Assembly (NCBI RefSeq): GCF_045037415.1
Contig: NZ_CP173438.1
From: Escherichia coli
GTDB taxonomy: Bacteria > Pseudomonadota > Gammaproteobacteria > Enterobacterales > Enterobacteriaceae
Strand: one strand, 5' to 3'
DNA: 64,000 nt
The notes beneath the pieces were generated by a model. It was not told the origin of the DNA. It did not search any database and worked only from the letters and a program-made list of their open reading frames with translations. Position numbers and translations under genes: made by a program. Below, piece by piece: positions 22,365 through 31,672 of this stretch. The first letter of the stretch is position 1. Each line of letters opens with the position of its first letter.

Positions 22365-22601
22365 ATGGCCGGGCAATCAGATTACCTGCCGCCCGGCTTA
22401 CCACACAACCGCGCCAAATGGCCCCAGGAATACCAGCTTAAAGAGCACTACGACATGCGAGCGGCGGCGCTGATCCGCCAACTCTTTGAGAAACGTATTC
22501 CGAGGGGAAGCGTGATTGAGCAAATCGGAATGACGCCAGATACGTACCGGGAATTTTTCAGAGAGCGTCTGAACTACTGGAGAGGGGTGATGGAACAATG
22601 A
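22365..22601 (+). CDS. hypothetical protein
   Basis: 78 aa, tightly packed in the rightward early operon. Confidence 0.55.
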   Translation: MAGQSDYLPPGLPHNRAKWPQEYQLKEHYDMRAAALIRQLFEKRIPRGSVIEQIGMTPDTYREFFRERLNYWRGVMEQ

Positions 22602-22909
22602 AATACAAACGGTGGGTGCGTGCGGAAGTCGTAATCATCAAACAATGTGCGGGCAGCATGACAGTTGAACGTATAGGGCAGCTTATTGGCAGAACCGGTG
22701 CAGCGGTACGCACAAAAGCGCGCGAGCTGAAAATCTGTATGTATCTGCGGGGTAATTATCACCAGTCAGTGAAATACCTCCAGGAAGATATCGAGCTGGC
22801 AAGGGAATTACATCAGTCGGGTATTAATCGCCAGGATATCGCAGAAAAACTCGAAATGCCGATCGGAGCGGTGAATCAGTTTGTTTATTTTGAGCGGAGA
22901 ATTTCATGA
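22598..22909 (+). CDS. hypothetical protein with two HTH-like segments
   Basis: 103 aa. MTVERIGQLIGRTGAAVRTKAREL and INRQDIAEKLEMPIGAVNQF look like HTH motifs. 4-nt overlaps on both sides. Confidence 0.55.
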   Translation: MKYKRWVRAEVVIIKQCAGSMTVERIGQLIGRTGAAVRTKARELKICMYLRGNYHQSVKYLQEDIELARELHQSGINRQDIAEKLEMPIGAVNQFVYFERRIS

Positions 22910-23130
22910 AAGAACTTTTTCTTGCATTTGTGCCCCGGTTTATTAATGACCAGATCGCACTGACTGATAATGGTGAACAATATGAAATTGCCTGCAGCAT
23001 GGTGGATGTGAATCCTGGCGAACGGTATGACGCGATGTGTGACCTGAAAATATTTACCTGGCTGGGTTGGGCTATTCCGTGTGGAGAACCAACCAATATT
23101 CGTCCGTTTGAGAGCAGGGAGGCTGTATGA
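22906..23130 (+). CDS. hypothetical protein
   Basis: 74 aa, overlapping start and stop with its neighbours. Confidence 0.5.
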   Translation: MKELFLAFVPRFINDQIALTDNGEQYEIACSMVDVNPGERYDAMCDLKIFTWLGWAIPCGEPTNIRPFESREAV

Positions 23131-23317
23131 GTGAATTGAAAATACGTCGCAAGGCAATAGCACGCGTTAAAAATCTATTACCAGTGCCTGTCAAATATCG
23201 TTTTTGTGGTGGGAATGTACGGATTGGTACGGATGTATGGTGATTGCGGAGTGACGTAAAACGAATCGTTGTGGGTGTAATATCGTCAATATCATTGGTT
23301 TCCCGGAGGGAAAGGAC

Positions 23318-23539
23318 ATGTTTGGCGATAAACTGGAGTTACCACGGAACGGGCGGATAGTGCTCTATATTTCAGATTACAAAGTAACCCGGGCTGAGGT
23401 GTTGGAACCGGAAAAACATCTGGTCACGTTACCGGACATTATTGAGTTGTATAAGCGGGTCGGATATGTGGACTTGCATCGCGATGATGTTCCCGTTGAG
23501 TGTATGGAATGTGAACACCGGAGGTTTGAAGTTGATTGA
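23318..23539 (+). CDS. hypothetical protein
   Basis: 73 aa with a GGAGGG RBS. Confidence 0.5.
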   Translation: MFGDKLELPRNGRIVLYISDYKVTRAEVLEPEKHLVTLPDIIELYKRVGYVDLHRDDVPVECMECEHRRFEVD

Positions 23540-23540
23540 A

Positions 23541-23569
23541 TTGACTTAGAAAAAGTCCGGGGCTATAGT
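23541..23569 (+). promoter_or_regulatory. near-consensus sigma-70 promoter
   Basis: TTGACT-N17-TATAGT. Confidence 0.55.
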
Positions 23570-23575
23570 TTCCGC

Positions 23576-23650
23576 GCAGCCGCAAAATCGGTTGCCGGGA
23601 TTGGCGTCCCGGATATCTAAGTGACGCATAGCCGCGTTAGCGGTTTTTTT
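23576..23650 (+). ncRNA. candidate ~75-nt short transcript or attenuated leader upstream of the ant-like gene
   Basis: Runs from the predicted start after the promoter through hairpin CCGGGA-ttggcg-TCCCGG (23595..23612) to GCCGC-gtta-GCGGT plus T7 (23631..23650). Confidence 0.35.
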
Positions 23651-23811
23651 ATGTGTTAGGCACGGCCACATTCGCATTATGGTGGGCTGTGTGGGGGCTT
23701 CTGTGGAAGCGCCGGGTTCACTTAGCCGGTTACGCCAACCCTGCACAGCTCACCACCAGATGATTGGCGTCGCTGGTGGTGATGAAAAAAACACTAAGTG
23801 AGGCCACTGCG

Positions 23812-24600
23812 ATGACAGTCCAAATATCTGCGGAATCCCTTTCTCCGCTACATCATAACCAACTTCCCGTCATCACTACTGAATTGCTTGCCAGTTTGTA
23901 TGGCACGGAAGTAAATGGTATCCAGCAAAACTTCAAGCGCAACATCGCCAGATTTGTCGTAGGAAAGCATTTTTTTAAGCTGGAAGGTAATGAATTACGC
24001 GACTTCAAAAACAGACTGACAGATAGTCAGTCAGTTGCTAAACATACCCGATCCCTCATTCTCTGGACAGAACGCGGCGCAGCTCGCCATGCCAAAATGC
24101 TGGAAACAGAACAGGCCTGGGAAGTTTTCGAAAAGCTGGAAGATTGTTATTTTAGCCAGCGTCCAGAGAGGCGGAGTACAACTACCGATGACCGTACTCC
24201 CTTGCGTGATGCCGTTAATATACTGGTCGGCAAGAAAGGCATGATGTATCCCGATGCCTACACCATGATTCATCAACGCTTCGCCGTCTCTCACATAGAA
24301 CAACTGTCACAGACGCAAATGTTAGAGGCGATTGAATACATCCACTGCCTGCTACTCGATGAAAATCACCCAACCATTCCAGATTTTTCTTTTATCACCA
24401 CTATCAAAAATGGAAAAGTGACCGGGATGCGCCATGTTGCCAAAGGCGAACATCTGATGACCTTTGACGCTTTCAAAGAGATCGCTGAGCGGGCAGGGTA
24501 TCTGGTGATCCACAGCGACAATCTGCGAAGTATGACACTGGATAAATTGATGGTAATGGGGAAAAAGTCGGCTATATCCGTTGCTAATTCAGCATTTTGA
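23812..24600 (+). CDS. ORF6N-domain antirepressor-like (Ant/KilA-type) protein
   Basis: Start MTVQISAESL with a GAGG RBS. NQLPVITTELLASLYGTEVNGIQQNFKRNIARFVVGKHFFKLEGNELRDFK fits the ORF6N pattern. Confidence 0.65.
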   Translation: MTVQISAESLSPLHHNQLPVITTELLASLYGTEVNGIQQNFKRNIARFVVGKHFFKLEGNELRDFKNRLTDSQSVAKHTRSLILWTERGAARHAKMLETEQAWEVFEKLEDCYFSQRPERRSTTTDDRTPLRDAVNILVGKKGMMYPDAYTMIHQRFAVSHIEQLSQTQMLEAIEYIHCLLLDENHPTIPDFSFITTIKNGKVTGMRHVAKGEHLMTFDAFKEIAERAGYLVIHSDNLRSMTLDKLMVMGKKSAISVANSAF

Positions 24601-24628
24601 CAGGTTGTTTGGGGCGGAAATACTCTAT

Positions 24629-24710
24629 TTGCGCTTAAAAAGGTATTTGACCACGACCAGCACGAGACCGAATACCTCTGTCAAAGTACCGCCCATATAA
24701 AACAGTTACA
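24629..24710 (-). pseudogene. 3'-terminal remnant of a paralog of gene 28047..28652
   Basis: ~82 nt align without gaps to 28051..28132 with ~10 mismatches. Minus strand encodes ...YMGGTLTEVFGLVLVVVKYLFKRK*, versus ...YMGGTLTEVFGLVLVVTKYLFKRK* in the full gene. Confidence 0.65.
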
Positions 24711-24774
24711 TATGCACTTGATGACTAAGCTGGCACCAGGTTAACACCTGGCGCCAGCTTGAAGGAGACTTCAG

Positions 24775-25698
24775 TTATTGGTTTCTGAGGAAAGCGATTC
24801 TTGAAAGGGTCATTTGCGTCTGGCAGTCGACCATTTTCTTGACTTCAGCATCTGTTCCCTGCATTGAAACTTTACCGCACATAGCATCCTTAGTTTTGAT
24901 CCACTGACGCTGAGAAGGCAGCAAATCTTTTTTCTTCGCCGGGGTTAACTTGCTCCAGACGGTACTCAAATCAGAGTCGGCATTCGCAAATGCCATTCGG
25001 GACTGATCAAGGTTGTCAGCTTTTTGCGGCTGAAGTTGTGCCTGTCTCTCTATTTGCTTCTCCGCCTCATACTTAGCCTGTTCTTGCGCCCTGAGTTGCA
25101 CCTGTTGTTCCGCTTCAATTTGACTCTGTTGGGCATCCTTAGCCTGCTGGATTTTCTGCTGCTCAACGATCGGGGTGATAATGGAAAGCGATGTCAGTAA
25201 AGCGGCGCCCACTGATATCGGATTATCAGTAGAGGTTTTTACAAAAACGTTTTTCTGATCGTCGGTCGCCTGCACGGTGTAGGTGATACGTTTTGAAAAG
25301 GCGTTTGCGTTGTTCTCCAAAAACAGGCTTTCCATTTGCTTATCGAGATTACGATTAAAATTCTTTCTGTAAGCATCTGAAAGCTGGACGTACTCGTTCG
25401 CAGATAGAGTCATCGTCACGGTCCCTTCACAAGTTTTCATTGTGCTGCCCGTGTCACTTGATGTTGTGGAGATCTCAGAGATGGCTAGTTTGATCTTGTC
25501 CAGTGTGCTTCGTTTGGTCTGATTAGTGACATCAGGGTATTTATCGACCTGTTCAGAGAGTCCTTCATAAGCAGATTTTTTTAATAAATCCATGAGAGCT
25601 GACTGGGTTATTTCCGAAGAACAACCGATCTCATCTTTTTTGTTATCACAGCCTGTAAGGGCAATGGCGAGTAAGAGTACTGAGTATTTTAATCTCAT
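24775..25698 (-). CDS. lipoprotein with a DUF1311 (LprI-like) C-terminal domain
   Basis: Lipobox LLAIALTGC. Q-rich coiled-coil middle. C-terminal LPSQRQWIKTKDAMCG...C...R pattern typical of DUF1311. Confidence 0.75.
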   Translation of the reverse strand: MRLKYSVLLLAIALTGCDNKKDEIGCSSEITQSALMDLLKKSAYEGLSEQVDKYPDVTNQTKRSTLDKIKLAISEISTTSSDTGSTMKTCEGTVTMTLSANEYVQLSDAYRKNFNRNLDKQMESLFLENNANAFSKRITYTVQATDDQKNVFVKTSTDNPISVGAALLTSLSIITPIVEQQKIQQAKDAQQSQIEAEQQVQLRAQEQAKYEAEKQIERQAQLQPQKADNLDQSRMAFANADSDLSTVWSKLTPAKKKDLLPSQRQWIKTKDAMCGKVSMQGTDAEVKKMVDCQTQMTLSRIAFLRNQ

Positions 25699-26211
25699 GA
25701 ATTCCCTTTAGAGTAAGGATTGGTTTTTAAGACGCGGTCTGTAATCAGTCCCGAGAGCTACAGTAAACAACGCTGAGCACTGAACGCATCACAGGTAAGG
25801 TAAAAGGTGATATCGGCAAAGGCTGTGAAACCTTTAATTCAACAGATGGGAACGGTATGCGCAGGATCCTGTAACGACGCTCCCAAAACCGGAAACCTGT
25901 AAGGCATGTTTTCGCTGCTGAACTTAATATACGAACCTGCACTATCATGAACATATTTTATATCGTTATACCCCGAGTGATTGTGCCCGGCAATGGATAG
26001 TGTCCTGGAGGAACTATTTCTACTGTAAAAGGTAGATATTTAATTTCAGTTTTGAATTATTCCCTGCTGTTAATAACAATGGCTGTATATGGCACCGAGT
26101 AGGCATTTTTTCGCTTACTGAAGGGCAGCTGTGAGCGAGGAACAGACTTTCCCTACTTCGTTGAGAGTACACCTAGTACAATCAAGGCTAAATGATAAAA
26201 ATATACAAAAT

Positions 26212-26242
26212 ATCATATTTATGATATATATAATGGCATTAA
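26212..26242 (+). promoter_or_regulatory. palindrome plus MAL mini-ORF unit, copy 1
   Basis: ATCATA-tt-TATGAT followed by ATGGCATTAA. A near-identical unit occurs at 26798..26836. Confidence 0.3.
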
Positions 26243-26314
26243 TCTTATTCTTGGATTACGTTGAAAGGGTAATATTATATTTGTGTAACATAGTTTAGAT
26301 AACAATGCCGTTAT

Positions 26315-26322
26315 GGGGGGGG
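26315..26322 (+). repeat. homopolymeric G8 tract
   Basis: Eight consecutive G in a very AT-rich stretch, 3 codons after an ATG (26305). Separates two reading frames. Confidence 0.9.
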
Positions 26323-26797
26323 AAAGACATTTCAACATATTAGCTTTGTATCTAACGCTCATGTAGATCTCGATTTTGAACTTAAAGAACAATTATTTTT
26401 TAGAGAGCAAGGTATTTTTGGGGAACAAAAACATAAAGTAATGGAGAGAGGAGAATGTATCAAAAAATCATCGATTTAATTTAGATTGTCCGTATAGTTG
26501 GGGGTAAGTCGAATCGCTGGGCTACATGGAATATTGTGTCAAGTAAAAATATATTTCAATCTTGCAATAACCGATTGTTGAAAATAATGTCAAATCTTAA
26601 TGGTGAATGGGGAGAATATAATAAACATGAGTCGATATTATGCAAATGGATTTAAATATTTTATACCCGAAGACATAGGGTTTCGAGAGTTCGATGAGAC
26701 TACTTTGAATGCTTTCGAATTTGCTGGCTAAAACATATAGGTTATATCTTACATCTGTTTGTAATGGAGCGTAGATGCGACAAGCTACACCATAATA

Positions 26798-26836
26798 ATC
26801 ATATTATGATATATTGTTAAGTTGTTATGGCATTAA
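26798..26836 (+). promoter_or_regulatory. palindrome plus MAL mini-ORF unit, copy 2 (upstream of gene 26886)
   Basis: ATCATA-t-TATGAT followed 12 nt later by ATGGCATTAA. Confidence 0.3.
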
Positions 26837-26885
26837 ATAAAATTATGTCATTTTGTTAACCAAGCAAGAATCAAAGGACTTTTAG

Positions 26886-27584
26886 ATGGGTACGGCATTA
26901 ATTTCAAGCTTTATTAGTGGTGCAATAGCTATAATCTCTATTGCTATATCTACTTATAATCAGAATAGAATAAACAAGCTCAATGAATCACTGGATGTAA
27001 GGAGAAAACATCAGTACTATATTGAACCGTTAATTCGCTCAGCTTCAGACTTACAAAGCCGTATTTATAATATATTAGAATTGGGGTTCATTGAAGAGTT
27101 TTATCATAATGGGAATAAGCGCCAACAAGATTATGTTATCAACAATACTGTTTTTCTTTTTTCCCAGTTTTTTGCATGGACAGAAGCTGCCCGCATAGAC
27201 ATTCAATACCTTAGCCTAGAAAAAAATAAAAAAATGAGGGAGTTTATTAGATTACAGAACAATATTAACTCATTAATCCAAACAGACGTCTTTGGTCAGT
27301 ATTTTATGTTTTTCATAGGAGAGCAGAGAGCTATTGCAGAAAAGATGCTGATATCAACAGATACTGGATTTGATTGCATAGGTTACGGCAGTTTCACAAA
27401 GGAAAATTGCTTTATCAATGAGCCATTTTTTTTAGATTTAAACAATGAAGTGATAAATATGACAAGAGATATCGGAATTTATAAAGAAAGGCTAATCAGA
27501 ATACAGCACGCGTTAATCGATTTAATTAATTTTCTTGATCCTGGCATGATTCGATTTGACGGAAAAAAATATGGAAAAATATAA
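26886..27584 (+). CDS. membrane-anchored protein of unknown function (cargo gene)
   Basis: 232 aa with an AAGGA RBS. N-terminal TM helix ALISSFISGAIAIISIAISTY followed by a helical soluble domain. Very AT-rich. Confidence 0.65.
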   Translation: MGTALISSFISGAIAIISIAISTYNQNRINKLNESLDVRRKHQYYIEPLIRSASDLQSRIYNILELGFIEEFYHNGNKRQQDYVINNTVFLFSQFFAWTEAARIDIQYLSLEKNKKMREFIRLQNNINSLIQTDVFGQYFMFFIGEQRAIAEKMLISTDTGFDCIGYGSFTKENCFINEPFFLDLNNEVINMTRDIGIYKERLIRIQHALIDLINFLDPGMIRFDGKKYGKI

Positions 27585-27769
27585 CCCAGATGATTCGTAT
27601 CAAGGTAAGTTGCTATATGTATCAATTTAATTATGGTTGGGTGAAATTTATGTTAATAGTAGCGGAGGGTTAGTTAAAATATGCTCTCAGTGATTTTTGG
27701 ATAGTTCTTTTATTTATCATTGAAAGTAAATATGTATAGCTTCAAGATTTACAAGTGAATCTGTTTATT

Positions 27770-27801
27770 GACAGTCCGCTTATGGCACAGAGCGGACTGT
27801 C
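27770..27801. terminator. strong hairpin downstream of gene 26886
   Basis: Perfect 11-bp inverted repeat GACAGTCCGCT ... AGCGGACTGTC with a 10-nt loop and AT-rich flanks. Confidence 0.6.
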
Positions 27802-28046
27802 ATATTAAATTTGGCTCCACGCCATAGATGTGTCAGCTCATATCTTATCTAATACACACAATAACTTTCTCATTCTTGGAGAATTATTTTTTTAAGGGTA
27901 GGTGTTGACGTTAGAGCAAAAGAATGGTGATTTTTTTGATGTGTATTACGTTGGAACTGATGGGAATAACTATCTGTTTTCAACGCACTGCTAATTTATC
28001 AAGGCCCTTTGATCAGGGCCTTCGAAAGACTGTTGGACCGAGAGAG

Positions 28047-28652
28047 TTACTTGCGTTTAAAAAGGTATTTTGTCACGACCAGCACGAGGCCGAATACCTC
28101 TGTCAAAGTACCGCCCATGTACAACTGTAGTGTTAAATCCTCAAATTCCAGCTTACCTGCGCCGTCGGCAATAAATACACCATTCATTATCAGAAGTTGG
28201 AAAGCAAGGATAATCAGGAACCATTTCCCGTATCGTTTTTTTAGAGCGATTTCTGCTTCAAAATCTTTGTTGTTGAGTTGTTTGCGCTCATGCTCGGTAT
28301 CAAGTGAATTCACCTGTTTCACAGATGTGAACTCGGTCAAGATTTTACTCTCAGTACGGGTGACTTGTTGAGAGGGTGTAGCAGTTGGAATTCTTTTGCT
28401 AGACGCAGCTACAGCCATTTTGCGAGCTTCGGCAGCTCTTTTTCTGGCTATTCCGCGAATACGGACAGCCGTTTTTTTGGGGGCGTGCGAAACCTTTGGC
28501 TGAGGTGAAGCTTCGTCAGGAGACTGAACCGGAGTTTCATCGTCCTCCGGCTCAACCTCTTCTGCTAACTGACGGTGTAGGTTGAGGGAATCCTTCAGTC
28601 TGCGTGCTACTTCCTGTTTGAAACGGCTGTTAAAATCGTCATCCGATGGCAT
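28047..28652 (-). CDS. two-TM membrane protein with a charged, disordered N-terminal region (candidate effector)
   Basis: 201 aa. Hydrophobic helices WFLIILAFQLLIMNGVFIA and GGTLTEVFGLVLVVTKYLF. Starts 9 nt after the peptidase gene. Confidence 0.7.
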   Translation of the reverse strand: MPSDDDFNSRFKQEVARRLKDSLNLHRQLAEEVEPEDDETPVQSPDEASPQPKVSHAPKKTAVRIRGIARKRAAEARKMAVAASSKRIPTATPSQQVTRTESKILTEFTSVKQVNSLDTEHERKQLNNKDFEAEIALKKRYGKWFLIILAFQLLIMNGVFIADGAGKLEFEDLTLQLYMGGTLTEVFGLVLVVTKYLFKRK

Positions 28653-28661
28653 TTTAAAGCG

Positions 28662-29150
28662 TTACCCCAACCTCAAGTTCTTTAAACGATAAGTCATCGC
28701 ATCGTCAGATACGCCAAAATAATGCGCCATTATATAACTTGGTTGACCGTCAGCGTGCAGTTTTCTGACCTCATCTACCGGCATCAGAAGTTCTGCTGCG
28801 AACTTGTTTGCAAAAATTTCATCAGGATGCGTTCCGGCGCTTGCGGTTTCGCCACGTAAATCAACGTACTCATATTCATCGCTATGCGATGCTTGCCGGG
28901 CGATGTAATGCCCCAACTCATGCCCACATGAAAAACGTTGACGAACTTTGTTGTCATCACTGTTTAGAAAGATCGCTGGATCTTGATCTTTTTGTTTAAT
29001 CAGTGCGCCAGAAACTTTCCCAGGAAGATCGGTAATAAAAACATCTAATCCCATGTCGTGAGCAATTTTCGCTGGATCAACAGGGAAACCACGCCCGCAC
29101 CAGAACGTGTCCAGCACTCGCCGGGCGTGCTCTCTTGGGTTGGTAGCCAT
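28662..29150 (-). CDS. ImmA/IrrE-family (M78) zinc metallopeptidase, stand-alone
   Basis: 162 aa. HExxH in FSCGHELGHYIARQ. GGAGG RBS. No HTH domain or adjacent HTH gene. Confidence 0.8.
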   Translation of the reverse strand: MATNPREHARRVLDTFWCGRGFPVDPAKIAHDMGLDVFITDLPGKVSGALIKQKDQDPAIFLNSDDNKVRQRFSCGHELGHYIARQASHSDEYEYVDLRGETASAGTHPDEIFANKFAAELLMPVDEVRKLHADGQPSYIMAHYFGVSDDAMTYRLKNLRLG

Positions 29151-29548
29151 AGCTCCTCCAGTTACTGCATTACGATTATTGGTTGAAATATAGACAGCAT
29201 GTTCCGTACCACATTCCTGTAAAAGTGCAAATTCTGCACTTCTGGTACGATATTAACTGTTAGTAGTAAAGTCTTCCAGATAAATCACTTTAAAATCTTG
29301 TGAATTGCTTGCTTTTTACGCTGTATTGTGGATGGTTCAATGTTTCCAGTAAAAACATACATGATAATCATGAGTTTAGTGTTTTTTTAGGCGTCTATAT
29401 GTTTCTGGAAAATACAGGTCTAACCTGATCTTATCGTTGAGATTTTTTGTACTCAGTATGCGTGAACGATTCGACCAGGTGACTGTGTACGTGAAGAAGA
29501 CCGCCCTTAATATTTTAAATGTGCAACCCCTCAGAAGAGGGGCTACTC

Positions 29549-29782
29549 TCACTTCTGCAGTATCTCGCCAATACCTGCCAGATTCTCGTCCATCTTGTCA
29601 CCGTTTTCGATAAGGATGGAGTTGAGCCGATTCAGTTGCATAGCAATTTCAAGTTTGATTAAGGTATCCACCGATACACCAGTTTCTTTTGCTAACTTAG
29701 TAAGAGCCGCAGCTCGATTGGCTAAATTAAAATCATCGAACTCATAACGACTTCTGCACGGCTGGTTGCCTAACGTACCCAT
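29549..29782 (-). CDS. hypothetical protein
   Basis: 77-aa ORF with a GAGGAA RBS. Hairpin CCCCTC-agaa-GAGGGG just after the stop. Confidence 0.5.
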   Translation of the reverse strand: MGTLGNQPCRSRYEFDDFNLANRAAALTKLAKETGVSVDTLIKLEIAMQLNRLNSILIENGDKMDENLAGIGEILQK

Positions 29783-30025
29783 AGTGATTCCTCATGATAT
29801 AAAGACCCAACAATATAAATTACCAGGCACATCATAAGATAGGGTTCCAGCCCATATTTTCAAATATTTGCAAGTATCACCGTTCAGTCTAAAAAGTTGG
29901 ATGATGATTTAACGAGCCATAACAAAACCCTGCCTCGGAGGTTTTTTCTTTTTTATAGAACTCAGCGGCGTGAAAACGAATAATAAATTGTGCAAATAGT
30001 GCAGTTTTTATTATTCGAGGTAATT

Positions 30026-30667
30026 ATGAAAACCTTCTATGAGGACTGGCCTGAAACTTTCGTTAGCCGGTTAGATATGTTACGGGCGTTGGATGATCGC
30101 GGTTCGACCCGGAGGCTCTATCTTGAACGGACCGGGGCAATATTTGACGCTCTGGCAGAAGAGATACGTACAGTCGTTGCCGGGCATCCTGAAATCGACG
30201 TGAGTGAACTTGATATCGGGCCGCTGTATCGCTATTACAAACGTGGAGAAAAGGGGAATCCGCTGGCTGACTTACTTATTGAGTTGGCTCCACCAACTTG
30301 TGAACGGGTTCGTATATCTCCTGAAGTGTACATAATCCCGTATCTGTTTTTTGCACTGTTGATAGCGCAAGGCGCTGACAACGATGCCCGCGATTTTTTC
30401 AATATGATGATGCGACCGTTAATCATCGCCTACCGTTTCAAACAACTGGCGCGATACCTGGGAACAAAGGGCGGAGGACGACCACAGCACAGATTAAAAA
30501 GCGAAGCCATTGAACTGGCTGATCGTTTTTTTACTGAAAACCCGACAGCGCCATTATCGCGTGGCGTGCAATACATATCCGGTATTTTTGTGGCGAAATA
30601 CTCTGACCCACCTGCAGCGTCGACGATTAGAAAATGGTTAATTCCAATTTACAGGAGTGATAAATAA
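30026..30667 (+). CDS. hypothetical protein (cargo gene)
   Basis: 213 aa from the ATG with a GAGG RBS. No motif I recognise. Confidence 0.55.
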   Translation: MKTFYEDWPETFVSRLDMLRALDDRGSTRRLYLERTGAIFDALAEEIRTVVAGHPEIDVSELDIGPLYRYYKRGEKGNPLADLLIELAPPTCERVRISPEVYIIPYLFFALLIAQGADNDARDFFNMMMRPLIIAYRFKQLARYLGTKGGGRPQHRLKSEAIELADRFFTENPTAPLSRGVQYISGIFVAKYSDPPAASTIRKWLIPIYRSDK

Positions 30668-30760
30668 TGACCATAAACGGTTTAATCCCCTATAAAACCG
30701 TTTAATAAAATTCACGACGTGAATATAATTGTTCATTATTCCCTCATTGTATTTGGCGTT

Positions 30761-30796
30761 ATGACAAATGCCATAAAATACTGTATAAATATACAG
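30761..30796 (+). promoter_or_regulatory. sigma-70 promoter overlapped by a LexA (SOS) box
   Basis: ATGACA-N17-TATAAA. CTGTATAAATATACAG at 30781..30796 fits CTGT-N8-ACAG and the TACTGTATATATATACAGTA consensus. Confidence 0.6.
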
Positions 30797-30818
30797 GTTG
30801 TGGCATTGGGGGGAAGAC

Positions 30819-30998
30819 ATGAATATTCAAGAATCTATAGGCGAACTACCGGAAACATGCCGGGCTGTTATCAAGCGTAAGGACGGACACATCGTTGGTG
30901 TGCGTGTTCTGACCGATGATGAGCGGATTGCCAGCCTGATGGCGTTTCTCGAGTTGGCAGAAATAGCTGGATATACTATTACACCCCCTGACGCGTAA
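30819..30998 (+). CDS. small SOS-controlled protein (antirepressor candidate)
   Basis: 59 aa. ATG directly after GGGGGGAAGAC. First ORF downstream of the LexA box. Confidence 0.45.
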   Translation: MNIQESIGELPETCRAVIKRKDGHIVGVRVLTDDERIASLMAFLELAEIAGYTITPPDA

Positions 30999-31075
30999 AA
31001 CACGGTATAATATCGGTGCTGGATTGAACACCCGGCATCATTTTCTGAACACTGCCGCGCCACCTGGAGTTAACC

Positions 31076-31672
31076 ATGGCGCAGCATTCATTTATCAGGG
31101 TATCCGGCGGTTCGCTAATACCCGCGACACCAGACACGCAACGCTGGTTGACTGAACGAGTCAAACCAGGTGCTGTTGTGTATGCAGATTTCAAACAGGC
31201 GCGTAATCCCGCGTTTCATCGTAAATTTTTCTCACTTCTCAACCTGGGCTTTGATTACTGGCATCCGTCCGGAGGGGCTATTTCTCCTGCGGAGCGCGAA
31301 CTGGTTCACGGCTACGTTAAGTTACTGGCGTATTACGGTGGACACGGTGATGTCATGGCAGAGCTGGCTGATCAGTATCTTCTCGATGAGTCGGAAAAGC
31401 GCGCGGGGAGTATCAGTGCGGTGAAGTCGTTCGAGGCGTTTCGCGCATGGGCGATTATGGAAGCTGGGTTTTATGACGTTCATCAGATGCCAGACGGCAG
31501 TTTGATGCGCGTACCTCGTTCAATCTCGTTTGCAGCGATGGACGATCTTGAGTTCGGTCAACTGTATTCAGCCGTTTTAGATGTGCTGTGGAATTATATT
31601 TTGTTCCGCACATTTGCCTCTCAGGAGGCCGCTGAAAATGCCGCCGCGCAGCTGCTGGATTACACATCATGA
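31076..31672 (+). CDS. DUF1367-like nin-region protein
   Basis: 198 aa. N-terminal pattern FIRVSGGSLIPATPDTQRWL...ADFKQARNPAFHRKFFSLL resembles DUF1367 as I recall it. Confidence 0.55.
   Translation: MAQHSFIRVSGGSLIPATPDTQRWLTERVKPGAVVYADFKQARNPAFHRKFFSLLNLGFDYWHPSGGAISPAERELVHGYVKLLAYYGGHGDVMAELADQYLLDESEKRAGSISAVKSFEAFRAWAIMEAGFYDVHQMPDGSLMRVPRSISFAAMDDLEFGQLYSAVLDVLWNYILFRTFASQEAAENAAAQLLDYTS

What the first reader, a model, noticed from the sequence alone, without database searches (positions are those of the whole stretch)
24601..30700. AT-rich ~6 kb cargo island inside the prophage between the ant-like gene and the SOS/Q operon
Seen: this stretch is visibly AT-rich; for example, the 60-nt line starting at 26941 has 17 G+C by my count. 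Flanking phage modules look close to balanced.

Its contents are:
- six ORFs in mixed orientation: lipoprotein, TM-anchored 232-aa protein, 2-TM protein, M78 peptidase, and 77-aa and 213-aa orphans;
- long ORF-free gaps and strong hairpins (27770-27801, 28001-28022);
- a gene remnant.

None of the ORFs resembles a core phage function that I can recognise.

Inference: this is a moron or defence hotspot, and it is where a novel anti-phage or host-interaction system is most likely to sit.
Basis: partly seen in the sequence, partly recalled or inferred. Interest (0 to 1): 0.6.

Follow-up and report, generated by a model that had tools for sequence, protein, structure and literature searches.

The report
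Swappable cargo slot in ST131 prophage
This stretch of an E. coli ST131 prophage is a slot where related prophages carry different accessory genes, sometimes proven anti-phage genes; the ST131 version carries three untested gene modules, two of which look like membrane-acting phage-exclusion systems.

Summary
Window 24601-30700 has the lowest G+C of any 6.1-kb stretch in the window (0.406 against 0.482). Only 26108-27958 is strongly AT-rich (0.32).

The window is the E. coli ST131 (EC958/JJ1886) prophage next to tRNA-Leu.

Eight non-clonal sibling prophages share the flanks: the ORF6N antirepressor-like gene, and the 213-aa gene plus NinB/Q. Between 24637 and 29926 they carry six different cargo sets. 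These include the validated PD-T4-3 nuclease and the candidate PDC-M25 ATPase pair. The hotspot reading is therefore supported. The 213-aa gene belongs to the phage backbone, not the cargo.

The ST131 cargo is a mosaic:
- an LprI/DUF1311 lipoprotein, whose close homologues are chromosomal genes in Citrobacter;
- an AT-rich single-gene cassette shared with the Z-region of phage P2-EC58. Its 232-aa membrane-anchored protein belongs to a large unnamed family and is remotely homologous to the 1-TM partner of the validated "RT-nitrilase + 1TM" defence system, but has no RT;
- an M78 peptidase plus 2-TM protein cassette, found at three other prophage positions;
- a 77-aa HTH-like gene.

An ~85-nt hairpin element marks cargo boundaries here and in P2-like and lambdoid phages.

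No function of the ST131 cargo has been shown.

The parts
23764..24600 (+). Left backbone anchor: ORF6N / antirepressor-like gene. It is conserved in all sibling prophages.
   Evidence: Pfam ORF6N 1e-21; PHROG 4792 anti-repressor 1.5e-165. Homology with the ECO20 sibling ends at 24637.
24626..24706 (.). The gene remnant: an 81-nt copy of the 3' end of the 2-TM gene, forming a direct repeat with 28048-28128.
   Evidence: the repeat finder D1, 89% identity. The same remnant is present in S42, SE11 and CFSAN061769.
24775..25698 (-). Module 1: 307-aa lipoprotein. It has a lipobox (LTGC), an alpha/beta domain, a long Q-rich helix and a C-terminal DUF1311/LprI domain.
26085..26150 (.). Left junction of the AT-rich cassette. 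It holds a degenerate inverted copy of the boundary hairpin, and the cargo breakpoints fall here.
   Evidence: Sibling homology ends at 26099-26107 and P2-EC58 homology starts at 26128. See alignment A3. P2-EC58 annotates an inverted repeat at the matching place.
26128..27856 (+). Module 2: AT-rich (32% G+C) single-gene cassette shared with the Z-region of phage P2-EC58.
   Evidence: 86% nt identity to AJ512683 over the whole cassette. The CDS is 94-99% identical and the flanks 70-85%.
26886..27584 (+). 232-aa protein with an N-terminal TM anchor and a cytoplasmic helical domain. It is a solo homologue of the RT-associated 1-TM protein.
   Evidence: 91% aa identity to P2-EC58 ORF1. AF2 pLDDT 86. 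The family has 1,877 clusters and no Pfam or NCBIfam model. PADLOC RTasTM 1.8e-5. hhalign 95.6%, E 1.1e-8, to the 1TM protein of the validated RT-nitrilase+1TM system.
27769..27958 (+). Cargo-boundary element. It consists of a 13-bp hairpin (27769-27802), a conserved tail (to about 27855), and a stretch (to 27958) shared with sibling prophages.
   Evidence: Terminator-like call. Copies sit at cargo boundaries in P2-EC58, P2, SE11, CFSAN061769, ECO20, GF131, YZMc3-1, 2H10 and BH100N. Stx phages also carry a copy near the integrase end, in records without gene annotation.
28001..28022 (-). Hairpin with an 8-bp stem, 25 nt downstream of the stop of the 2-TM gene. It is a possible terminator with a weak U-tract.
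   Evidence: Read from the sequence. It was not called by the terminator scan.
28047..28652 (-). Module 3b: 201-aa protein. It has a conserved N-terminal helix, a hypervariable disordered linker and a nearly invariant C-terminal 2-TM hairpin.
   Evidence: Alignment A4. It always lies directly downstream of the M78 gene. Allelic changes cluster in the linker (48-66) and in the TM1 end plus inter-TM loop (161-171).
28662..29150 (-). Module 3a: 162-aa M78 (ImmA/IrrE-type) zinc peptidase with an intact HELGH motif.
   Evidence: Pfam Peptidase_M78 7.7e-18. PADLOC capP 2.4e-25. The closest solved chain is CapP 7t5t. The protein is identical in four sibling arrangements. The module 28025-29412 is shared with S42.
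29549..29782 (-). Module 4: 77-aa protein with a weak HTH-like stretch. It is a small variable module shared with ECO20 only.
   Evidence: PHROG 5550, function unknown. Sub-threshold MerR hit. 29516-30963 is shared with ECO20, and the stretch is replaced by other small ORFs in S42, GF131 and YZMc3-1.
29926..30667 (+). Right backbone anchor. Homology with all siblings resumes at 29926. The 213-aa gene (30026-30667) is conserved backbone of unknown function.
   Evidence: No Pfam, PADLOC, NCBIfam or PDB match. A CRISPR spacer in another E. coli strain matches it.

Best explanation
The region is a variable accessory-gene slot (a moron/defence hotspot) in a family of E. coli prophages with a lambdoid early region and a myovirus tail. 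It lies between the antirepressor-like ORF6N gene and a conserved 213-aa gene upstream of NinB/Q.

**Shown.**
- Cargo is exchanged as discrete modules. The junctions coincide with a conserved ~85-nt hairpin-containing element and with an 81-nt duplicated gene end.
- The ST131 allele is a mosaic of four modules with separate histories.

**Inferred mechanisms.**
1. *The 232-aa protein.* It is tethered to the inner membrane by its N-terminal helix, with its conserved helical domain in the cytoplasm. I infer that it acts alone as a phage-exclusion or abortive-infection effector. It would do this in the way its remote homologue is presumed to act as the membrane effector of RT-nitrilase defence systems, and in the place where P2 carries its T5-exclusion gene fun(Z).
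2. *The M78 peptidase and 2-TM protein.* These form a self-contained two-gene unit. I infer that the cytoplasmic protease cleaves the disordered cytoplasmic linker of the membrane protein. That cleavage would switch its invariant 2-TM hairpin between an inert state and a membrane-perturbing or entry-blocking state upon infection or DNA damage.
3. *The LprI/DUF1311 lipoprotein.* It is a captured bacterial envelope gene that probably inhibits a peptidoglycan hydrolase. That would make it lysogenic conversion rather than classical defence.
For: **Hotspot.**
- Six cargo arrangements occur among eight non-clonal siblings that share flanks. Breakpoints are mapped.
- A validated defence gene, PD-T4-3, is present in three siblings. 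PDC-M25A/B is present in GF131. SMEK/Aga-REase-like and methyltransferase genes are present in ECO20 and YZMc3-1.
- The region has the lowest G+C in the window.

**232-aa protein.**
- The cassette is also found in the P2-EC58 Z-region. A homologue sits in a P2-like prophage remnant in Providencia, between the gpU tail gene and the tail-fibre assembly gene.
- The CDS is better conserved than its flanks.
- The family is large, with 25 invariant, mostly polar positions.
- It is a solo gene beside SIR2+HerA, toxin-antitoxin genes and an ORC/Cdc6-like ATPase.
- In 76 loci it has no recurrent partner, and some immediate neighbours are defence genes.
- It is homologous to the RT-associated 1-TM protein. 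That protein's system was validated experimentally (Rousset 2022, PMC9122126).

**M78 + 2TM.**
- The pair is conserved with a 3-11-nt spacing at four different prophage positions, and no upstream sequence is conserved with it.
- The HELGH motif is intact.
- The peptidase is identical in four siblings. The partner varies in its linker and inter-TM loop.
- The 2-TM hairpin is nearly invariant across genera.

**Boundary element.**
Against: - No experiment or expression data were available.
- None of the ST131 cargo proteins gets a full-length, strong match to a PADLOC defence model. The capP hit covers only the peptidase core.
- Most neighbours of the 232-aa family in other phyla are ordinary metabolic genes, so the association with defence genes is modest and was not quantified against a control.
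- The promoter annotated in P2-EC58 has a degraded -10 box here. DNA of 32% G+C is a typical H-NS target (my own knowledge), so the gene may be silent.
- The LprI gene is a chromosomal gene in other genera, which argues for a non-defence role for that module.
- The cleavage step proposed for the M78/2-TM pair is pure inference.
Confidence: 0.6

Rival explanations
1. The cargo genes are host-interaction (lysogenic conversion or virulence) genes rather than anti-phage genes. The LprI-type lipoprotein would protect the envelope from lysozyme or amidase attack, and the membrane proteins would modify envelope physiology of the uropathogenic host.
For: - The DUF1311/LprI domain is confirmed by sequence and fold.
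- Its close homologues are conserved chromosomal genes in Citrobacter and Enterobacter, outside prophages.
- The island is fixed in about 400 ST131 genomes.
- Many neighbours of the 232-aa family are ordinary genes.
Against: - The same slot holds PD-T4-3 and other nuclease or ATPase defence-type genes in siblings.
- The 232-aa cassette sits in the P2 Z/fun hotspot and is homologous to a component of a defence system.
- Fixation in ST131 is explained by clonality.
Confidence: 0.2
2. The M78 peptidase and 2-TM protein serve the prophage's own life cycle. The peptidase would be an ImmA-type anti-repressor protease that cleaves the short HTH repressor to induce the prophage, and the membrane protein would be a lysis or timing factor.
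For: - M78 peptidases of the ImmA, IrrE and CapP type cleave XRE repressors (established knowledge; literature listed).
- The prophage repressor is a 130-aa HTH protein annotated without a peptidase domain.
- The pair lies near the antirepressor-like gene.
Against: - The pair is absent from siblings that carry the identical repressor protein WP_000853106.1 (ECO20 and CFSAN061769).
- The pair occurs at unrelated positions in other prophages: next to the integrase, and after Q.
- Its conserved partner is a membrane protein, not a repressor.
Confidence: 0.1
3. The island is decaying, H-NS-silenced horizontally acquired DNA with no current function, and the M78/2-TM pair is merely a selfish toxin-antitoxin addiction module.
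For: - The core is very AT-rich, there are long non-coding gaps, there is a gene remnant, and the annotated -10 box is degraded.
- IS insertions occur in some strains.
- COG2856 peptidases have been proposed as TA components (my own knowledge; the weak NCBIfam antitoxin-family hit is).
Against: - All six ORFs are intact and 100% identical in the listed ST131 genomes.
- The 232-aa CDS is far better conserved than its flanks.
- The family shows strong conservation of polar residues across phyla.
- The 2-TM hairpin is invariant across genera, while its loop varies.
Confidence: 0.1

Closest known systems
P2/P4 prophage defence hotspots (Rousset et al. 2022, PMC9122126), in particular the P2 Z/fun locus between genes G and FI
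   Same: - It is a fixed slot between conserved phage genes, with interchangeable, often AT-rich cargo that includes validated defence genes.
- The 232-aa cassette itself is present in the Z-region of P2-EC58, flanked by the same hairpin element.
- The element sits next to gene G in P2.
   Different: - The slot here is in the early/nin region of a prophage with a lambdoid early region, between an ORF6N gene and NinB/Q, not in a P2 tail operon.
- P2's own Fun(Z) protein is unrelated in sequence.
- The cargo here is a mosaic of several modules.
RT-nitrilase + 1TM system, i.e. class 1 DRT (DRT type 1 of Gao et al. 2020; UG5-nitrilase system pFR76 of Rousset et al. 2022)
   Same: - The 232-aa protein has the same size and the same architecture as the 1TM partner: an N-terminal TM helix followed by a helical domain.
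- It aligns with that partner over 119 columns and shares motifs (hhalign 95.6%, E 1.1e-8; PADLOC RTasTM 1.8e-5).
   Different: - No reverse transcriptase or nitrilase gene is present in the island.
- None appears as a recurrent neighbour in 76 other loci.
- Sequence identity is only about 22-25%.
CapP/CapH, ImmA/ImmR and IrrE/DdrO protease-repressor pairs
   Same: M78 zinc peptidase with HEXXH. The closest solved structure is CapP 7t5t. The gene lies in a defence or mobile-element context.
   Different: - The obligate neighbour is a 2-TM membrane protein with a disordered linker, not an XRE-type HTH repressor.
- The peptidase is only 162 aa and covers positions 3-151 of the 242-position capP profile.
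- No conserved operator or upstream region travels with the pair.
Prophage superinfection-exclusion membrane proteins, e.g. HK97 gp15, P22 SieA, lambda RexB, T4 Imm (from my own knowledge)
   Same: Small inner-membrane proteins encoded by morons in temperate phages. Allelic variation of the 2-TM protein concentrates in the predicted periplasmic loop.
   Different: No sequence similarity was detected to any of them. None of them is paired with a protease.
LprI / DUF1311 proteins: M. tuberculosis lysozyme inhibitor LprI, and T6SS amidase immunity proteins with this fold (my own knowledge)
   Same: C-terminal DUF1311 domain by Pfam and by fold, plus a lipoprotein signal sequence.
   Different: It has an extra N-terminal alpha/beta domain and a ~60-residue helix. 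It is prophage-borne here. Inhibitory activity is untested.

Membership tests
Prophage variable-cargo (moron/defence) hotspot | The same slot is bounded by conserved backbone genes in related phages. | tested here: met
   The ORF6N gene on the left and the 213-aa/NinB/Q genes on the right are conserved at 84-98% nt identity in S42, SE11, CFSAN061769, L26, ECO20, GF131 and YZMc3-1.
Prophage variable-cargo (moron/defence) hotspot | Gene content of the slot differs between otherwise similar relatives. | tested here: met
   There are six different arrangements. Breakpoints fall at 24637, 26099-26128, 27774-27958, 28025, 29412, 29516 and 29926.
Prophage variable-cargo (moron/defence) hotspot | The slot holds recognised defence systems in some members. 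| tested here: met
   PD-T4-3 at 5.7e-138, full length. PDC-M25A at 3.3e-157 and PDC-M25B at 5.3e-96; this pair is a candidate system only.
Prophage variable-cargo (moron/defence) hotspot | Cargo is dispensable for lytic growth and expressed from the repressed prophage. | not testable with these tools
   Dispensability is implied by the absence of each module from some siblings. Expression needs RNA-seq.
Class 1 DRT / RT-nitrilase + 1TM system | An adjacent UG/Abi-type reverse transcriptase, usually fused to a nitrilase. | tested here: not met
   No such ORF is present in 24601-30700. No RT appears among the recurrent neighbours of the family in 76 loci.
Class 1 DRT / RT-nitrilase + 1TM system | A ~230-aa partner protein with one N-terminal TM helix, homologous to RTasTM. 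| tested here: met
   PADLOC RTasTM 1.8e-5. hhalign probability 95.6%, E 1.1e-8, against the pFR76 protein 2 sequence taken from Rousset 2022 Table S2A.
CapP/CapH (ImmA/ImmR, IrrE/DdrO) regulator pair | An M78 zinc peptidase with HEXXH. | tested here: met
   Pfam PF06114 7.7e-18. PADLOC capP 2.4e-25. The HELGH motif is present in the sequence.
CapP/CapH (ImmA/ImmR, IrrE/DdrO) regulator pair | An adjacent XRE-type HTH repressor that is the protease substrate. | tested here: not met
   The conserved neighbour is a 2-TM protein with no HTH hit. No conserved upstream ORF exists in the four contexts examined.
CapP/CapH (ImmA/ImmR, IrrE/DdrO) regulator pair | Cleavage stimulated by ssDNA or DNA damage. 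| not testable with these tools
   This needs biochemistry.
P2 Fun(Z) lysogenic-conversion protein | Sequence homology to P2 Fun(Z). | tested here: not met
   BLASTP E 0.61. Only the locus and the general membrane-anchored architecture are shared.
LprI / DUF1311 family | A DUF1311 domain by sequence and by fold. | tested here: met
LprI / DUF1311 family | Inhibition of lysozyme or another peptidoglycan hydrolase. | not testable with these tools
   This needs an enzyme inhibition assay.

The most novel reading that the evidence does not exclude
Three linked claims.
1. The 232-aa membrane-anchored protein represents a very large family with no Pfam or NCBIfam model (about 1,900 clusters at 50% identity, across many phyla). 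This family would be a self-sufficient single-gene anti-phage module, and class 1 DRT systems would have recruited a diverged copy of it as their effector.
2. The M78 peptidase + 2-TM cassette would be a new protease-gated membrane effector system.
3. The ~85-nt hairpin element would be a portable boundary or recombination handle that lets cargo cassettes move between hotspots of unrelated phages, namely P2 Z/fun, lambdoid int-xis sites and this nin-region slot.
Probability: 0.3. Interest if true: 0.7.

Novelty: new member of a known kind. Interest (0 to 1): 0.5.

Why it matters
- ST131 is the dominant multidrug-resistant extraintestinal E. coli clone, and this island is fixed in about 400 complete ST131 genomes. 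If its cargo excludes phages, that bears on phage therapy against this lineage.
- The comparison defines a tractable hotspot outside the P2/P4 paradigm, with at least six alleles. Several of them consist of uncharacterised genes next to validated ones, which makes it a ready source of candidate defence systems.
- It gives two concrete untested candidates: a solo relative of an RT-associated effector, and a protease plus 2-TM pair.
- It identifies a short DNA element that may explain how cassettes move between unrelated phages.

Tried and rejected
- **Fun(Z).** P2 Fun(Z) is not homologous to the 232-aa protein.
- **Fusion partners.** Longer members of the 232-aa family gave nothing informative: sub-threshold NAL1_N hits in two proteins and a GerE domain in one.
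- **Obligate partner.** The neighbourhood census found none.
- **Remnants of sibling cargo.** None were found in the ORF-free gaps. The 43-aa ORF at 26600-26731 is not conserved in P2-EC58.
- **RNA families.** Rfam found none in 24000-31500.
- **Regulator upstream of the M78 gene.** The upstream regions of four contexts do not align.
- **Phage collection.** tblastn with the 2-TM protein found nothing. The 232-aa protein found only P2-EC58.
- **Literature.**
  - Protein accessions returned nothing.
  - "P2-EC58" returned only mentions of its Abi-P2 reverse transcriptase at another locus.
  - I found no name for this EC958 prophage in Forde 2014 with the terms I tried.
  - A hotspot preprint does not mention lambdoid phages.

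Full report
**Identity of the window**

The 6.1-kb query is 100% identical to the chromosome of E. coli ST131 strains EC958, JJ1886 and many others. It matches 579 of 5,426 complete E. coli genomes, and 402 of them over at least 80% of its length. In EC958 it lies in a prophage integrated beside the tRNA-Gly/Cys/Leu cluster downstream of pgsA. The prophage has an integrase, a short HTH repressor, Cro-like and YdaT genes, replication genes, NinB/DUF1364/Q, lysis genes, a lambda-like head module and a contractile-tail module. A 27-kb phage record, vB_EcoM-705R4, is 100% identical from 28662 to 30700.

**Check of the observation**

All stated facts hold.

- The line at 26941 has 17 G+C.
- The region has essentially the lowest G+C of any 6.1-kb stretch in the window: 0.406, against a minimum of 0.403 at 24701 and a mean of 0.482.
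- The dip is dominated by 26108-27958, at 0.324. The other parts are 0.41-0.46.
- The six ORFs, the two hairpins and the long ORF-free gaps are present.
- The gene remnant is an 81-nt copy, 89% identical, of the 3' end of the 2-TM gene. It lies just downstream of the ORF6N gene at 24626-24706.

**Is it a variable-cargo slot?**

Most matching genomes are clonal ST131, so I looked for non-clonal relatives through the flanks and read their annotation. All of them share the ORF6N gene on the left and a 210-214-aa gene, a 59-aa gene, DUF1367 (NinB-like), DUF1364 and Q on the right. Between these flanks the content is as follows.

| Strain(s) | Cargo between the ORF6N gene and the 213-aa gene |
|---|---|
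| ST131 | LprI; 232-aa gene; 2TM + M78; 77-aa gene |
| S42 | LprI; 65-aa gene, GIY-YIG nuclease, 134-aa gene; 2TM + M78; 92-aa gene |
| SE11, CFSAN061769, L26 | LprI; 186-aa gene, HNH protein, GIY-YIG protein, 459-aa, 220-aa and 259-aa genes |
| ECO20 | 231-aa gene + methyltransferase; SMEK-domain protein; 450-aa, 182-aa and 226-aa genes; 77-aa gene |
| GF131 | AAA ATPase + 252-aa gene; 2TM + M78; 79-aa gene |
| YZMc3-1 | 231-aa gene + methyltransferase; SMEK-domain protein; 450-aa gene; 2TM + M78; 92-aa gene |

Pairwise BLAST places the breakpoints at 24637, 26099-26107, 26128, 27774-27958, 28025, 29412, 29516 and 29926.

- The GIY-YIG protein of SE11, CFSAN061769 and L26 is a full-length PD-T4-3 (E 5.7e-138). 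This is a system validated by Vassallo et al. 2022 (PMC9519451).
- The GF131 pair matches the PADLOC candidate PDC-M25A/B (3.3e-157 and 5.3e-96).
- The ECO20 and YZMc3-1 cargo includes a SMEK_N/Aga-REase-like protein and a methyltransferase.

The 213-aa gene is present in every sibling, so it is backbone and the true slot is about 24637-29926.

**Module 2: the AT-rich cassette (26128-27856)**

It is 86% identical over its whole length to the Z-region insert of phage P2-EC58 (AJ512683). That record annotates ORF1 as a "putative lysogenic protein" flanked by inverted repeats. The two proteins are 91% identical. The coding part is 94-99% identical at the nucleotide level, while the flanks are 70-85% identical, which indicates selection on the protein.

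Properties of the protein:
- It has an N-terminal hydrophobic helix followed by basic residues, so the rest is predicted to be cytoplasmic.
- AlphaFold gives a confident all-helical model (pLDDT 86).
- It has no Pfam or NCBIfam model and only one PHROG of unknown function.
- The family is large: 290 clusters at 90% identity in one search, and 1,877 clusters at 50% identity with E <= 0.001 in an exhaustive profile search.
- Members occur in Enterobacterales, Acidobacteriota, Cyanobacteria, Bacteroidota, Actinomycetota and others.
- There are 25 invariant, mostly polar positions.

Genomic context of family members:
- In Providencia the gene sits in a P2-like prophage remnant, between the gpU tail gene and the tail-fibre assembly gene.
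- In a Lysobacteraceae genome it is next to SIR2+HerA.
- Elsewhere it is next to toxin-antitoxin genes or an ORC/Cdc6-like ATPase.
- A census of the nearest ORF on each side in 76 loci found no recurrent partner. Some neighbours are defence genes (mad2, mad8, DrmC, HerA, type I REase, JukB, Mko), and many are ordinary genes.

So it is a solo gene.

Similarity to known proteins:
- The fold searches gave nothing specific.
- The one informative link is a weak PADLOC hit to RTasTM (1.8e-5).
- I tested this link by taking the sequence of the 1TM partner of the validated "RT-nitrilase + 1TM" system from Rousset 2022 Table S2A.
- A profile-sequence comparison gave 95.6% probability and E 1.1e-8 over 119 columns. 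It aligned the Y-x2-NT-x-F-x3-QYF-x-W motif, the EQ-x2-IGE motif and the C-x2-Y-x2-F motif.
- The protein is therefore a remote, stand-alone relative of a presumed membrane effector of a defence system. No reverse transcriptase is nearby.
- P2's own Fun(Z) is not related.

**Module 3: M78 peptidase + 2-TM protein (28025-29412)**

The 162-aa protein is an ImmA/IrrE-type peptidase with an intact HELGH motif. It is closest to CapP (PADLOC 2.4e-25; PDB 7t5t).

Its downstream neighbour has homologues only in Enterobacterales (48 clusters). That protein has three parts:
- a conserved N-terminal helix;
- a hypervariable linker of very different lengths;
- a nearly invariant C-terminal 2-TM hairpin.

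The pair recurs at four different prophage positions, and no upstream sequence is conserved with it:
- here, in the nin-region slot;
- between attL and the integrase in Klebsiella oxytoca;
- between attL and the integrase in an E. coli prophage at mtfA;
- between Q and the lysis genes in Serratia.

Among the four sibling arrangements that carry it, the peptidase is identical, with 4 synonymous differences. The 2-TM protein has 4-16 substitutions, concentrated in the linker (48-66) and at the end of TM1 and the inter-TM loop (161-171).

This is not a CapP/CapH-type pair because there is no HTH partner. I infer a protease-gated membrane effector. The varying loop suggests contact with something outside the cytoplasm. 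This is inference only.

**Module 1: the lipoprotein (24638-26107)**

- It has a lipobox and a C-terminal DUF1311/LprI domain by sequence and by fold.
- Homologues of 83-89% identity are chromosomal genes in Citrobacter and Enterobacter.
- In Citrobacter the gene lies in a conserved non-phage neighbourhood.
- It looks like a captured bacterial envelope gene, so lysogenic conversion is the more natural reading for this module.

**Module 4 (29413-29925)**

It encodes a 77-aa protein with a weak HTH-like stretch. It is shared only with ECO20.

**Cargo boundaries**

The hairpin at 27769-27802 is the start of an ~85-nt conserved element. Copies occur at the following places:
- at the right end of the different cargos of SE11, CFSAN061769, ECO20, GF131 and YZMc3-1;
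- in P2-EC58, a full copy at the right end of the cassette and a ~37-nt inverted hairpin part at the left end;
- directly after gene G at the Z/fun locus of P2 and many P2-like phages, with a ~30-nt inverted hairpin part on the FI side;
- between an integrase-adjacent accessory gene and xis in lambdoid phage 2H10, and at the equivalent boundary (next to a DUF551 gene) in a BH100N prophage;
- near the integrase end of Stx phages.

At least a partial match is present in 1,446 of 5,426 E. coli genomes. At the left junction of the AT-rich cassette, a degenerate inverted copy coincides with the breakpoints at 26099-26128. Rfam has no family for it. It may be a moron terminator that travels with cassettes, or a homology patch used for exchange. 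I did not resolve which.

**Verdict**

This is a mosaic accessory-gene hotspot of a known type, at a locus that, as far as I could find, has not been described.

The ST131 allele carries no catalogued defence system. It does carry two plausible, untested candidates and one probable envelope-conversion gene.

The concept is established (Rousset 2022; Vassallo 2022), so I rate this as a new member of a known kind, of moderate interest.

Noticed in passing
window 27769-27855 (degenerate inverted copy near 26085-26150); also L001 214-250 and 1866-1960, L023 896-929 and 2496-2590, L004 19188-19273, L005 16192-16278, L027 8759-8844, L028 8759-8845, L022 3001-3084, L025 5001-5083, L021 2501-2581: An ~85-nt element marks the edges of accessory-gene cassettes in unrelated phages: P2 Z/fun, lambdoid int-xis sites and this slot. 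Stx phages also carry a copy. It consists of the hairpin GACAGTCCGCT..AGCGGACTGTC plus a conserved tail containing GCCATAGATGTGTCAGCTCA. It also occurs beside a transposase remnant between gltD and nanQ in many E. coli genomes. At least a partial match is present in 1,446 of 5,426 genomes. Some variants can form a second, mutually exclusive hairpin (GGCACAGAG/CTCTGTGCC). It has no Rfam family.
   Followed up: partly
window 24626-24706 and 28048-28128: An 81-nt direct repeat (89% identical). The last 27 codons of the 2-TM gene are duplicated just downstream of the ORF6N gene, bracketing the LprI and AT-rich modules. The remnant is also present in siblings that lack the 2-TM gene (SE11, CFSAN061769). 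This suggests an older arrangement in which the 2TM/M78 pair abutted the ORF6N gene.
   Followed up: yes
window 30391-30424, 31043-31075, 31184-31217: CRISPR arrays of other E. coli strains (MP1, M3, L725, strain 48) contain spacers 100% identical to the 213-aa backbone gene, to the stretch just upstream of NinB and to the NinB-like gene of this prophage.
   Followed up: no
window 28047-28652 and 28662-29150, compared with L003, L027 and L028: The M78 peptidase is identical in four sibling prophages, with 4 synonymous differences. Its 2-TM partner carries 4-16 amino-acid changes, clustered in the disordered linker (48-66) and at the end of TM1 and the inter-TM loop (161-171). This pattern is expected if the loop is under diversifying selection.
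   Followed up: partly
window 24775-25698; L109-L111 6001-6942: The prophage LprI-type lipoprotein has 83-89% identical homologues that are widespread chromosomal genes in Citrobacter and Enterobacter. In Citrobacter the gene lies between a fec-like iron ABC transporter and MFS/amn genes. The prophage copy therefore looks like a captured bacterial gene.
   Followed up: partly
window 28662-30700; phage record ON470624.1 25074-27112: The 27-kb record of "Escherichia phage vB_EcoM-705R4" is 100% identical to the window and ends exactly at the 3' end of the M78 gene (window 28662). The record therefore stops at the edge of the 2-TM gene and AT-rich part. This may be an incomplete assembly.
   Followed up: no
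window about 26000-27950, 22600-24600 and 29926-31672, in other ST131 genomes: Individual ST131 genomes carry IS insertions in or next to the island. There is an IS1 in the AT-rich cassette (WP4-S17-ESBL-03), an IS26 near the ORF6N gene (OZ039827) and an ISL3 near the 213-aa gene (AVS0247). A few genomes match the right flank only from about window 30785 onwards.
   Followed up: no
L065, L067, L070, L074, L081, L087, L092 (relatives of the 232-aa gene): In several Heliomicrobium, Blastocatellia and Acidobacteria genomes the family gene is co-oriented and tightly spaced between genes of 530-680 aa. The Pfam census shows carboxyl-transferase and biotin-carboxylase domains among neighbours. The gene may be inserted in, or belong to, a metabolic operon there. 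That would not fit a pure defence role.
   Followed up: no
window 30026-30667: The conserved 213-aa backbone gene has no match in Pfam, NCBIfam, PADLOC or PDB sequences, and only a PHROG of unknown function. Its role in this phage family is unknown.
   Followed up: no
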